Positions 45,001-48,000 of a DNA stretch of 64,000 bases are shown piece by piece. Numbering within the stretch: position 1 is the stretch's first letter; every line of letters starts with the position of its first letter. The position numbers were made by a program. Location: the NCBI GenBank assembly GCA_034780895.1, contig JAUZTB010000017.1, positions 29,833,573-29,897,572 of the forward strand. The letters run 5' to 3'. The DNA comes from Rhynchobatus australiae. Taxonomy: Eukaryota.

Positions 45001-48000
45001 GTGAGGATATCACAGAAACTGCCGTTCCTTTGCTTTATACAATTGGAATACTTTATGGTCAGGGATTTTGCTCCACCTCTAAATGTTTGACGTCAAAACA
45101 ATTGTCCAAACAAAGCGGCCTTAAAAAAAAGGTCAGCTGTCGCCATAATGCCAAAATGAATTAGAGAAAATTAAACACGTACAGCATTCTTCAAAAATTG
45201 TAATCTTCACTGACCGCAATGGGGGCCTACCGGATGATAACGTTGTCTACAGCTCATGCTTCTCAACAGTACGGCCGCTGGATTTTTCCTNNNACCAACA
45301 TATATTTTACTGTATTTAAAATTTATCTCTTATACTTTAGACAGCCAGTGAACAATGATAACGATACTCTCAATTTTATATATGAAGCAAAAATTATTGG
45401 CAACATAGTGAAAACGCTGCATAAATTAAACAAGTATTGAAGGCATCTGGGTCCATTGCTTTTCAGCCAAGATTTTTTGGGAGTAGGGGTTCACAAAGAA
45501 CCTCGGTGTTAGACAGTGACAAGAACATGTTCATAGGAACCGGGGATATATTTGGACCGATCTTTGTAACTGACCAGCTGAAAAGAACAGATGCGGTATT
45601 TTCACTGCAATGTCACATCCCTTAAAGATGGCACTACAATATGGCTGTGAAGGTCATGTCCTAACGCGTCTTTTGTACATCTGGTTATGAAGAAAATATT
45701 GGAGGGCGCATTACTGTACCTGAAATTGCAACATGCCGTTGTTGTTGTCCGTCCTAAAGGCGTTGTCGTCCATCCAAGACTTGGGGTTCAATGTGGGTGC
45801 AGTTCGAGGGAACTTAGGAGGGGCGATCACATTGCTGGAGAAGGGTTTCTTGAGCGGAGAGATAGGATTGAGAGGGGACGGCACCCCAACGGCTCGCCGG
45901 GGATCCCTGGCTTGTAGCCCGCTCCAAGGGTTGGGGGCAGTGCTCCAGGTCGTGTTCTGGTGGTTGTTCCAAGCCGAAGAAGGCTTGCTTGTCATGATGG
46001 GCTGGTGGCTGTAGGCGCTGCGTTGGGCGAAGGGAGCCTGCGGGCTGACCGGCGACCTCCTCTGCTGCTGTTGCTGTTGGGCGGCTTGGTGGTGCTGTGT
46101 CTGTTGAGCCAGACCGATCTGCGGCGAGAAAGTGCCACCGAAAACCGGGTTGACGTGAGTGAAATTTTGGAACAGCATCGTCCCATTCACTGGCGGGATC
46201 CCTTGGAAAAAGCTATCATCTACGGTGTTGGTGGTGCCGGTGGACCACGTACTGAACGAAGGGGACAAGGAGGTACCAGGCTCCTGGGGTTGAAAGCTCA
46301 AACCGGGCAAAATTGGCGATTCCATCTGCGCCTTCTCTTTATTCTGGCCAGAAACCGGGGCGTTTATACTCACGGAGCTCTCTTCTGATTTGGGGGTTTC
46401 TGCGGCTTCGGTACTTTGCTCTGACCTTGGTGAAAGCTGCTGGGGTTTGCTTTTGTCCATCAGTAAATCATCCTGCATGGTTTGCGGAGCTGAAACAGGA
46501 AAAAACAAAGACGCATTATTATTAGCTGTGTTCTGGTACTCCGGCGCCGGCGAAAATCCTGTATTATTGCTAGGTGACTGTAAAGCAAATCTGTAATCCC
46601 CCATTTAGCAGAGGGGTGGTTGGGGGGGTAGGGAGCAATATTAATAGTTCTCTTTTGAAAGAAGGAGGAGCGGCTTCACCCTTTCGTGTTCTGGTTTGCC
46701 CTCGGAATGAGAGATTTGGGATGCGGGCACAGATATTCACCAATTTCGCCACGTCTTTCTTTACACCGGAACTTCAGCTCTCACCCGCAATGTGAAACTG
46801 ATTCTTGTTCCTGTTCAAGAGCTTTCAAAGCCCTTTGCTAATTTACATACGTCAATAAATAGTGCNNNNNNNNNNNNNNNNNNNNNNNNNNNNNNNNNNN
46901 NNNNNNNNNNNNNNNNNNNNNNNNNNNNNNNNNNNNNNNNNNNNNNNNNNNNNNNNNNNNNNNNNNNNNNNNNNNNNNNNNNNNNNNNNNNNNNNNNNNN
47001 NNNNNNNNNNNNTGCAGCTCTGGGCACCATACTGCATTTTATTTAAACTCCCTGACCAACTGGAAGGGGGTGGGGAGAAAGAGATGCAGAAACAGAAACC
47101 TGCCTAAATCGAGTAAACAACAGCCTGTTTTGCACCAAAATTATCTTCGAACGTTAAACGAATAGGCGATTCGTTGAAAATACGACTTCATAACAAAATA
47201 AATGAAACAACCCGCCCTTAAAGCAGCAAAAGCTCATTTGACACGTAACTTATGACCTTGTCCATTTTATTCACGTCTGCATATTATTGACACGAATTAG
47301 ATTTCCAGCCCCGAGCACAATGAGATTTTACAAAGTCCCCAAAATCTCCTGCGTATTGTCATTTCTCGAGCAGCATATTTACGCCATTTATCTACACTAA
47401 CAAAATGTTTTTTTTATATATAAAATGGCTCCTTGATTTGCACGCCAAACGACGATTGGACAACTCCTAATTCTACTTTCTGAAGGACAAATTATATTTA
47501 TAAAAAAAGACTGATATCAAAATGACGAACTACAAAATACTCTTCCGCATTCTATAATGGCATTATTCAATTGAAATTTTAATCTGACCACTATGCAAAT
47601 CAGCAATCAAATCAAAACGTCGCTAAATTAACATGTTTAAAATGCACGTGTATTTTTAATCAGAATAATTATTTATCGTCAGCAGCACCAGACCCTCAAG
47701 GTCATTGTCAACTCGTATCCACATTCATGCCAAATGTTGCCAGTTTCATTTTAATTGGTTACGTACAGAGCTTAAAAAAGAGATGGCATTTCCTAAAAAA
47801 AATCAATATTAGATACATTCATTGTTCTAAATACCAAACGCGAGAAGAATAAAAATGAGTTATCTCCAGCAGGGCGTAAATGACAAGCGCTCTTCTAAAT
47901 AAATTGTTCTCTTAAACATAGGCAATGCTTCGTTTCTAACAACAAAAGGTCAGCTTTACAAATAAAATATTAATCCAAGTTAACCGACGAACTATATAAA

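What the first reader, a model, noticed from the sequence alone, without database searches (positions are those of the whole stretch)
46479..47100. Two alternative 3' splice sites may switch the CPEB3 N-terminus; one acceptor lies inside coding sequence
Seen: the codons for SLFFPVS in the extension double as a strong pyrimidine tract plus CAG acceptor (exon start 46489, 11 nt before ACCATG of MQDD). A second strong acceptor lies 570 nt upstream (exon start 47059). Inference: the proximal site removes the MGDY ATG and gives the mammalian-type protein, while the distal site keeps it. The MGDY ATG has a weak -3 (taaATGG) and the MQDD ATG a strong one (accATG), so leaky scanning could give both proteins from the long mRNA. 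This could be an intermediate showing how the short CPEB3 start arose.
[Added by the scan's program, not by the reader: the finding's places include an assembly gap (unread letters, written N; its length is only estimated) at 46866 to 47012. Whether the letters on both sides are continuous or in frame is not known: test that first.]
Basis: partly seen in the sequence, partly recalled or inferred. Interest (0 to 1): 0.72.

Follow-up and report, generated by a model that had tools for sequence, protein, structure and literature searches.

The report
CPEB3 first coding exon, long start

Summary
On the minus strand there is an ATG at 46604 (MGDY) and an ATG at 46478 (MQDD). There are also two AG sites behind strong pyrimidine tracts, giving exon starts at 46489 and 47059. 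Both sites score among the best 0.2% of all AGs in the window on an approximate matrix.

Compared by eye, it lines up with the printed N-terminus of CPEB4: same first four residues, and similarity that runs straight through the MQDD methionine, where CPEB4 has Ile. The long start is therefore most likely ancestral and the main start here. Human CPEB3 starts at MQDD, so the short start is derived.

The proximal acceptor is largely a by-product of Leu/Phe/Pro/Val/Ser codons. An almost equally strong look-alike sits in undisputed coding sequence of the same exon.

Leaky scanning is weakened. An out-of-frame ATG at 46516, with A at -3, lies between the two starts, and its short frame runs past the MQDD ATG.

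A strong donor-like site at 46785 allows a third model: a 295-nt intron that removes the MGDY ATG.

The assembly gap (46866-47012) lies in untranslated sequence. It leaves the continuity of the distal exon, and the "570 nt", unknown. Actual splice-site use cannot be tested with these tools.

The parts
46479..46604 (-). 42-codon N-terminal 'extension' (MGDY...APQT), in frame with and continuous with the CPEB3 body
   Evidence: Open frame running from an ATG that directly follows a TAA. By eye it is collinear with the printed CPEB4 N-terminus. Codon log-likelihood is 0.4 in frame against -26.2 and -30.9 in the other two frames, but GC3 is 0.40 against 0.67 for the rest of the exon.
46602..46604 (-). 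MGDY ATG: weak -3 (T), G at +4
46605..46607 (-). In-frame TAA directly before the MGDY ATG; it closes the frame upstream
46476..46478 (-). MQDD ATG (A at -3); this is the position of residue 1 of human CPEB3
46490..46510 (-). Proximal acceptor-like site (pyrimidine tract plus CAG; exon would start at 46489), made of the codons for S-L-F-F-P-V-S-A
   Evidence: 12.39 bits, reached by 15 of 7669 AGs. CTAAT branch-point-like motif with its A 33 nt before the exon start. Recoding test gives P about 0.02.
47060..47080 (-). Distal acceptor-like site (exon would start at 47059)
   Evidence: 13.30 bits, reached by 7 of 7669 AGs. Single copy in the window. No yTnAy motif in the 52 nt before it.
46866..47012 (.). 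Assembly gap (147 N, length estimated) between the distal acceptor and the MGDY ATG
46779..46787 (-). Donor-like site CGG|GTGAGA (last exon base 46785). With the proximal acceptor it would bound a 295-nt intron, 46784-46490, that contains the MGDY ATG
   Evidence: 9.85 bits, rank 26 of 6431 GTs; better than both real donors in the window, which score 5.38 and 7.55.
46460..46516 (-). Out-of-frame ATG (A at -3) with an 18-codon frame that runs past the MQDD ATG
45720..46478 (-). Rest of the first coding exon of CPEB3, ending at CAG|GTACAG
   Evidence: PDB chain 8spa_A (named CPEB3) matches residues 113-159 of the 295-aa exon product, E = 1.4e-19. Donor scored.
26362..26521 (-). Next CPEB3 coding exon (DRNRPYD...HFA), reached after a 19.2-kb intron. 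Phase 0 at the junction
   Evidence: Acceptor scores 12.31 bits.
48400..49200 (-). GC-rich core of a CpG-rich domain spanning 45,001-49,600. Candidate promoter and non-coding first exon(s), with donor-like sites at 48345 and 49161
   Evidence: CpG obs/exp is 0.6-1.4 here against 0.26 for the whole window. Donor-like sites score 8.11 and 8.01 bits.

Best explanation
This is the 5' end of a non-mammalian CPEB3 gene.

The 42 codons before MQDD are the ancestral N-terminus that CPEB3 shares with its paralogue CPEB4. The MGDY ATG at 46604 is most likely the main start codon in this animal (inferred). The first coding exon therefore begins upstream of 46604. The best candidate for its 5' edge is the acceptor at 47059, fed by a non-coding first exon in the CpG-rich core at 48.4-49.2 kb (inferred). 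This arrangement resembles mouse, where non-coding 5' exons join the first coding exon.

The proximal acceptor at 46489 is mainly a by-product of pyrimidine-rich Leu/Phe/Pro/Val/Ser codons plus one TCA-GCT codon pair. It may be used as a minor or regulated site, but that is not shown.

In mammals, translation starts at the internal Met. The short start is therefore derived.
For: Gene identity:
- PDB chain 8spa_A, named CPEB3, matches the exon product at E = 1.4e-19 with 43 of 47 aligned residues identical.
- The next exon is found 19.2 kb downstream, in phase.
- An exon with a RING-variant domain lies head-to-head at 63.8 kb (Pfam PF12906, E = 5.2e-15). Cpeb3-March5 is listed as a gene pair in mouse (passage seen, PMC6336207).

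Extension homologous to CPEB4, comparing with the CPEB4 N-terminal construct printed in bioRxiv 10.1101/2023.03.19.532587 (passage seen), by eye:
- 5 of the first 6 residues are identical (MGDY.F).
- Q-S..N-T-G follows in the same order.
- There is an Asn run.
- An ungapped 14-column block runs FP..A....QD..L, with 6 of 14 identical. It runs straight across the MQDD Met, where CPEB4 has Ile.
- The chance of G-D-Y after a given ATG under the window's base composition is 5e-5, and 2.5e-6 with the Phe as well.

Other support:
- The frame is open for exactly 42 codons from the ATG that follows a stop. A stretch of that length stays open by chance with P = 0.06 under the window's composition, and 1481 of 17320 intronic frames (0.086) are open.
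- The codon score fits only this frame (0.4 against -26.2 and -30.9). It is reached by 0.8% of 2474 intronic windows.
- Human CPEB3 residue 1 is the MQDD Met (passages seen, PMC9166367).
- In mouse, three alternative 5'UTR exons join the first coding exon (section read, PMC2807433).
- 47059 is the best acceptor-like site between the CpG core and the ATG.
- The recoding test and the in-exon look-alike at 46251 show that the proximal motif follows largely from the peptide.
Against: - No transcript or protein data exist here.
- The CPEB4 comparison is by eye only and carries no alignment statistic.
- GC3 of the extension (0.40) is like the upstream non-coding DNA (0.44) and unlike the rest of the exon (0.67). 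Some upstream non-coding windows score higher on the codon measure, with a maximum of 6.8 among 135 windows.
- The MGDY ATG has a poor -3 base, while the MQDD ATG has a good one.
- The proximal motif reaches a score that only about 2% of synonymous encodings reach. A strong donor-like site at 46785 (rank 26 of 6431) would pair with it. Together these hint at a real intron.
- The long leader from 47059 has at least three upstream ATGs and an unread gap.
- No branch-point-like motif lies before the distal site.
Confidence: 0.55

Rival explanations
1. One upstream donor is joined either to 47059, giving the long mRNA with the MGDY start, or to 46489, giving the short mRNA with the MQDD start. This regulated choice switches the N-terminus.
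For: - Both sites rank in the top 15 of 7669 AGs. Two such sites within 600 nt has P = 0.0036, post hoc.
- Donor-like sites exist in the CpG core at 48345 and 49161.
- The proximal site has a CTAAT motif with its A 33 nt before the exon start.
- Splicing at 46489 also removes the out-of-frame ATG at 46516 and leaves the well-placed MQDD ATG first in the exon.
- The observed acceptor score is reached by only about 2% of synonymous encodings.
- In mouse, the first coding exon does undergo internal splicing that shifts the start codon (PMC2807433, section read).
Against: - There is no expression evidence.
- The pyrimidine tract is explained by the peptide.
- An equally placed look-alike in coding sequence at 46251 scores 11.73.
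- The gap may hide other splice sites.
Confidence: 0.2
2. Sequential model. 47059-46785 is a separate non-coding exon and 46784-46490 is an intron of 295 nt. If the intron is always removed, the protein starts at MQDD as in mammals and the MGDY frame is a relic. If it is sometimes retained, intron retention rather than acceptor choice gives the long form.
For: - The donor-like site CGG|GTGAGA at 46785 scores 9.85 bits, rank 26 of 6431 GTs, above both real donors in the window.
- The resulting intron has GT...AG ends, a strong pyrimidine tract and a CTAAT motif.
- GC3 of the 42 codons resembles non-coding DNA.
- The Kozak context favours the MQDD ATG.
Against: A relic would not be expected to keep the CPEB4-type first residues, an open frame and collinear similarity since the paralogues split. 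Exon continuity across the gap is unknown.
Confidence: 0.15
3. Unspliced proximal promoter. Transcription starts inside the CpG-rich domain downstream of 47059, so neither acceptor is used. The coding exon is the first exon and the protein starts at MGDY, or at MQDD if transcription starts below 46604.
For: CpG obs/exp stays at 0.6-1.4 from 45,001 to 49,600, right across the exon and its upstream flank, against 0.26 for the whole window.
Against: - In mouse the first coding exon is exon 2, about 33 kb from the 5' end (passages seen, PMC10919898), or exon 4 in another count. In both counts it is always preceded by non-coding exons.
- A top-ranked acceptor sits just upstream.
Confidence: 0.1

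Closest known systems
CPEB4 N-terminus, as printed for the N-terminal-domain construct in bioRxiv 10.1101/2023.03.19.532587
   Same: It starts MGDY.F, followed by Q-S..N-T-G, an Asn run, and then FP..A....QD..L leading into the conserved body (K.K, QQLSP, ESP.L.G, SFF, LFQNF, FGG.FSPQIG). This was compared by eye.
   Different: In CPEB4, 69 residues precede the position of the window's second Met, against 42 here. CPEB4 has Ile at that position, so it has no second start there. I did not compute an alignment, because the printed sequence is not one I may type into a tool.
Mammalian CPEB3 (human and mouse)
   Same: - The protein body is the same: 43 of 47 residues identical to the solved human segment 8spa.
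- MQDDLLMDKSK is shared with human residues 1-11.
- The first coding exon is preceded by non-coding exons, and in mouse it shows an internal 388-nt splice that shifts the start.
- March5 is a neighbour.
- One mouse database entry reads QQAAQT before the Met. Its last residues resemble APQT here.
   Different: - The mammalian protein begins at MQDD; here 42 more codons are open upstream.
- There is no poly-Gln run after MDKSK here.
- No CPEB3 ribozyme was found in the intron after the first coding exon (0 matches at gathering scores; 4 sub-threshold chance matches, none a ribozyme). That intron has several gaps, however.
Start-codon switching by alternative 3' splice sites, retained 5' introns or leaky scanning (general mechanisms; from established knowledge, not from a call)
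   Same: The anatomy would allow the two splicing mechanisms: two acceptor-like sites flank the first ATG, and a GT...AG unit encloses it.
   Different: No usage data are available. For leaky scanning, the requirement of no ATG between the two starts is not met.

Membership tests
CPEB3 orthologue (CPEB2-4 subfamily) | N-terminal disordered region containing the CPEB3 segment solved as 8spa | tested here: met
   phmmer against PDB: 8spa_A, named CPEB3, E = 1.4e-19, query residues 113-159, 43 of 47 identical.
CPEB3 orthologue (CPEB2-4 subfamily) | C-terminal pair of RRMs and a ZZ-type zinc finger | not testable with these tools
   Those exons lie beyond the window. Short motif scans of the minus strand found only the first two coding exons. 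Pfam finds no family in either one.
CPEB3 orthologue (CPEB2-4 subfamily) | Neighbourhood: head-to-head with March5, as in mouse | tested here: inconclusive
   There is a RING-variant domain exon on the + strand at 63774-63998 (PF12906, E = 5.2e-15). Calling this exon March5 rests on recall. Its first exon was not found.
CPEB4-type N-terminus (MGDY start) | First residues MGDY.F, and collinear similarity up to the conserved body | tested here: met
   Compared by eye between and the sequence printed: 5 of 6 first residues identical, and an ungapped 14-column block with 6 of 14 identical across the second Met. No computed statistic, only the chance estimate.
Alternative 3' splice-site pair | Two AG acceptors with pyrimidine tracts in the same transcript | tested here: met
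   12.39 and 13.30 bits, reached by 15 and 7 of 7669 AGs respectively.
Alternative 3' splice-site pair | A common upstream donor and continuous sequence between the sites | tested here: inconclusive
   Donor-like sites lie at 48345 and 49161. The gap at 46866-47012 breaks continuity. A donor-like site at 46785 lies between the two acceptors.
Alternative 3' splice-site pair | Both junctions observed in RNA | not testable with these tools
Leaky-scanning dual-start mRNA | First AUG in a weak context | tested here: met
   T at -3, though G at +4.
Leaky-scanning dual-start mRNA | No other AUG between the two starts | tested here: not met
   There is an ATG at 46516 with A at -3, out of frame. Its 18 codons end at 46460, past the second start.

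The most novel reading that the evidence does not exclude
A short intron (46784-46490), or the acceptor at 46489 alone, is removed or used in only part of the transcripts. Its 3' splice site lies inside the ancestral coding sequence. The animal would then make both a CPEB4-type (MGDY) and a mammal-type (MQDD) CPEB3. That would be a living intermediate showing how mammals lost the first 42 codons, by turning coding sequence into intron or 5'UTR.
Probability: 0.2. Interest if true: 0.6.

Novelty: new member of a known kind. Interest (0 to 1): 0.35.

Why it matters
The N-terminal disordered region of CPEB3 carries its prion-like and condensate behaviour, and in human the very first residues (M1-T12) form a helix (PMC9166367). 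If non-mammalian CPEB3 starts 42 residues earlier, with a CPEB4-type head, that helix is internal there, and the mammalian N-terminus is a truncation of an older one. This matters for gene annotation and for comparing the CPEB2-4 paralogues. If the two starts are really switched by splicing, it would add a regulated N-terminal isoform to a memory-related translational regulator and show a route by which a start codon moves. On present evidence it is an ordinary orthologue with a longer, ancestral start.

Tried and rejected
- Pfam on the first coding exon (295 aa) and the next exon (53 aa): 0 families.
- ESM Atlas on the exon product: best score 0.77, an unnamed cluster, no lead.
- Rfam: 0 matches at gathering scores over the whole window. 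Over 26300-49700 there were 4 matches at E up to 1, all far below their gathering scores and none a ribozyme.
- Codon-usage score of the extension: it fits the frame, but GC3 and some upstream windows make it ambiguous.
- Search for a first exon of the RING-CH gene near the CpG core: not found.
- Literature:
  - 'MGDY' with 'CPEB' gave 1 paper, which concerns CPEB4 only. I found nothing in the held library that prints a CPEB3 with this start.
  - The CPEB2 start-codon search gave nothing useful (listing only).
  - The vertebrate CPEB evolution paper PMC11965684 does not discuss N-termini (outline, methods section 18 and a term search). Its Supplementary Table S1 of orthologue accessions could bear on whether database models of CPEB3 in other vertebrates start at MGDY. 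Supplements are closed.
- The first part used the wrong reading frame. It was redone.
- Left out:
  - A computed alignment with the printed CPEB4 sequence, which is not a sequence I may type.
  - Any search with a joined multi-exon model; exons were searched singly.
  - Filling the gap.
- Unchecked because closed or unsuited:
  - The genome collection holds bacteria and archaea only, and the phage, plasmid and E. coli collections are irrelevant.
  - Whether CPEB3 of other species carries the extension therefore stayed unchecked.
- I take the contig to be non-human. It has 4 mismatches in 47 residues to the human segment, no poly-Gln, no ribozyme, and many retroelement frames.
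Full report
**What is there**

The finding lies on the minus strand, at the 5' end of a CPEB3 gene.

- A single open frame runs from an ATG at 46604 to a donor CAG|GTACAG after 45720. 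It is 295 codons long.
- The next coding exon is at 26521-26362, after a 19.2-kb intron. The frame continues in phase 0.
[quoted passage not shown] The match is E = 1.4e-19 over query residues 113-159, with 43 of 47 residues identical.
- Pfam has no family for either exon.
- On the other strand, at 63774-63998, lies an exon with a RING-variant domain (PF12906, E = 5.2e-15). Cpeb3-March5 is named as a gene pair in mouse (passage of PMC6336207). Calling the window's exon March5 is recall.
- I take the contig to be non-human. It has 4 mismatches in 47 residues to the human segment, no poly-Gln after MDKSK, no CPEB3 ribozyme and many retroelement-like frames.

**Checking the observation**

- The MGDY ATG is at 46604-46602, in the context tgctaaATGg.
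- The MQDD ATG is at 46478-46476, in the context caaaccATGc.
- The proximal AG is at 46491-46490, so the exon would start at 46489. That is 11 nt before the ATG, not before ACCATG.
- The distal AG is at 47061-47060, so the exon would start at 47059.

I scored the sites with an approximate log-odds matrix. The frequencies are recalled and rounded, so the scores are relative only.

| Site | Bits | AGs reaching this score |
|---|---|---|
| Proximal (46489) | 12.39 | 15 of 7669 |
| Distal (47059) | 13.30 | 7 of 7669 |
| Real acceptor at 26521 | 12.31 | 17 of 7669 |

Two such sites within 600 nt has P = 0.0036 from the minus-strand density, which is a post hoc figure.

Two controls cut the other way.

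- The real acceptor of the RING-CH exon scores only 8.01, rank 176 of 7669.
- A look-alike at 46251, inside undisputed coding sequence, scores 11.73 (64 AGs in the exon were scored).

**The gap**

- The N run at 46866-47012 (147 N) lies between the distal acceptor and the MGDY ATG.
- The 261 nt between the gap and that ATG carry four stops in the MGDY frame. The last is a TAA that touches the ATG. No protein frame can cross the gap, so the frame question is moot for the protein.
- Continuity is a separate matter. The flanks share no 8-12-mers and have no end overlap.
- It therefore stays unknown whether 47059-47013 and 46865-46605 belong to one exon, what lies between them, and whether the distance is really 570 nt.

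**What the extension is**

A preprint prints the N-terminal domain of CPEB4 (bioRxiv 10.1101/2023.03.19.532587, passage seen). I set it beside the window's product by eye.

- Both begin MGDY.F, with 5 of the first 6 residues identical.
- Both continue with Q-S..N-T-G and an Asn run.
- They then share an ungapped block FP..A....QD..L, with 6 of 14 columns identical. It runs straight through the window's second Met, where CPEB4 has Ile.
- After that the well-conserved body follows in both.
- In CPEB4, 69 residues precede that position; here 42 do.

Supporting numbers:

- Under the window's base composition, G-D-Y after a given ATG has probability 5e-5, and 2.5e-6 with the Phe as well.
- A stretch of that length stays open by chance with P = 0.06 under the window's composition. 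In the intron, 1481 of 17320 frames of that length are open.
- The codon score fits only this frame: 0.4 against -26.2 and -30.9. It is reached by 0.8% of 2474 intronic windows and 1.6% of 1481 open intronic frames.

Evidence against:

- GC3 of the extension is 0.40. The upstream flank is 0.44 and the rest of the exon is 0.67.
- Some upstream windows score higher on the codon measure, with a maximum of 6.8 among 135 windows.

I did not compute an alignment, because the printed sequence is not one I may type into a tool.

Human CPEB3 is numbered from the MQDD Met (passages of PMC9166367). I infer that the long start is ancestral to the CPEB3/CPEB4 pair and the mammalian start is derived.

**The proximal acceptor**

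- Its pyrimidine tract is the codons of S-L-F-F-P-V-S-A. The F-P and the A are shared with CPEB4.
- I enumerated all synonymous encodings of that peptide. An AG falls at this place in 10-17% of them. An AG with at least 9 bits occurs in 8-12%. The observed score is reached in about 2%.
- The motif is therefore mostly, but not wholly, what the peptide gives.
- A CTAAT motif has its A 33 nt before the exon start. No such motif lies in the 52 nt before the distal site.

**Leaky scanning**

- However, an out-of-frame ATG at 46516 (ataataATGc, A at -3) lies between the two starts. Its 18-codon frame ends at 46460, beyond the MQDD ATG.
- Ribosomes that skip the first ATG would meet this one first, so the long mRNA is a poor source of the short protein.
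- The leader from 47059 also has ATGs at 47037, 47030 and 46848.

**A third anatomy**

- A donor-like site, CGG|GTGAGA, has its last exon base at 46785. It scores 9.85 bits, rank 26 of 6431 GTs. The two real donors in the window score 5.38 and 7.55.
- With the proximal acceptor it would bound a 295-nt intron that holds both the MGDY ATG and the 46516 ATG.
- The two acceptors could then be successive rather than alternative.

**Surroundings**

- CpG obs/exp is 0.6-1.4 from 45,001 to 49,600, against 0.26 for the whole window. There is a GC-rich core at 48.4-49.2 kb.
- Donor-like sites lie at 48345 and 49161.
- In mouse, three alternative non-coding exons join the first coding exon. A 388-nt internal splice in that exon shifts the start. 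One database entry reads QQAAQT before the Met (section 5 of PMC2807433).
- Also in mouse, the first coding exon lies about 33 kb from the 5' end, and the ribozyme lies in the following intron (passages of PMC10919898).

**Verdict**

- Most likely (0.55): this CPEB3 starts at MGDY. The exon's 5' edge lies upstream, with 47059 the best candidate. The proximal site is mainly a coding by-product.
- Only RNA and initiation data can decide between them.
- The joined multi-exon model was not searched.
- In the held paper library, 'MGDY' together with 'CPEB' occurs in one paper, and that paper concerns CPEB4.

Noticed in passing
window 63774-63998 (+): An exon encoding a RING-variant (RING-CH) domain, head-to-head with CPEB3 (PF12906, E = 5.2e-15). 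Its acceptor at 63800 scores only 8.01 bits. It is probably the March5 neighbour known from mouse, but that name is recall. Its first exon was not found.
   Followed up: partly
window 45001-49600: This is one of only two stretches in the window that pass the CpG screen (CpG obs/exp at least 0.6); the other is 1601-2200. It is a CpG-rich domain of about 4.6 kb (obs/exp 0.6-1.4 against 0.26 for the window) covering the first coding exon and its upstream flank, with a GC-rich core at 48.4-49.2 kb. It could be a promoter shared by both genes.
   Followed up: partly
window about 48885-48925 (-): A CAG/CAA trinucleotide run (caacagcaacagcagcag...) inside the GC-rich core. It lies upstream of the coding exon. 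It is not known whether it is transcribed.
   Followed up: no
window 46251 (-): A strong acceptor look-alike (11.73 bits) inside undisputed coding sequence. Mouse Cpeb3 has a reported 388-nt internal splice in the same exon. Whether the two correspond was not examined.
   Followed up: no
window 26522-45719 (-): The intron that follows the first coding exon holds the self-cleaving CPEB3 ribozyme in mammals. No ribozyme match was found here: 0 matches at gathering scores and only 4 chance-level matches to other families. The intron has several N gaps, so absence is not proven.
   Followed up: yes
window 2409-2711 (-), 53752-54054 (-), 41544-42119 (+), 60364-60870 (-): Retroelement-like open frames recur in the window, with similar peptide stretches in several copies. 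From recall they resemble elements common in cartilaginous fishes. No tool was run on them.
   Followed up: no
whole window: There are 20 N runs, eight of them exactly 100 long. This is a draft scaffold, so distances across gaps are estimates.
   Followed up: yes
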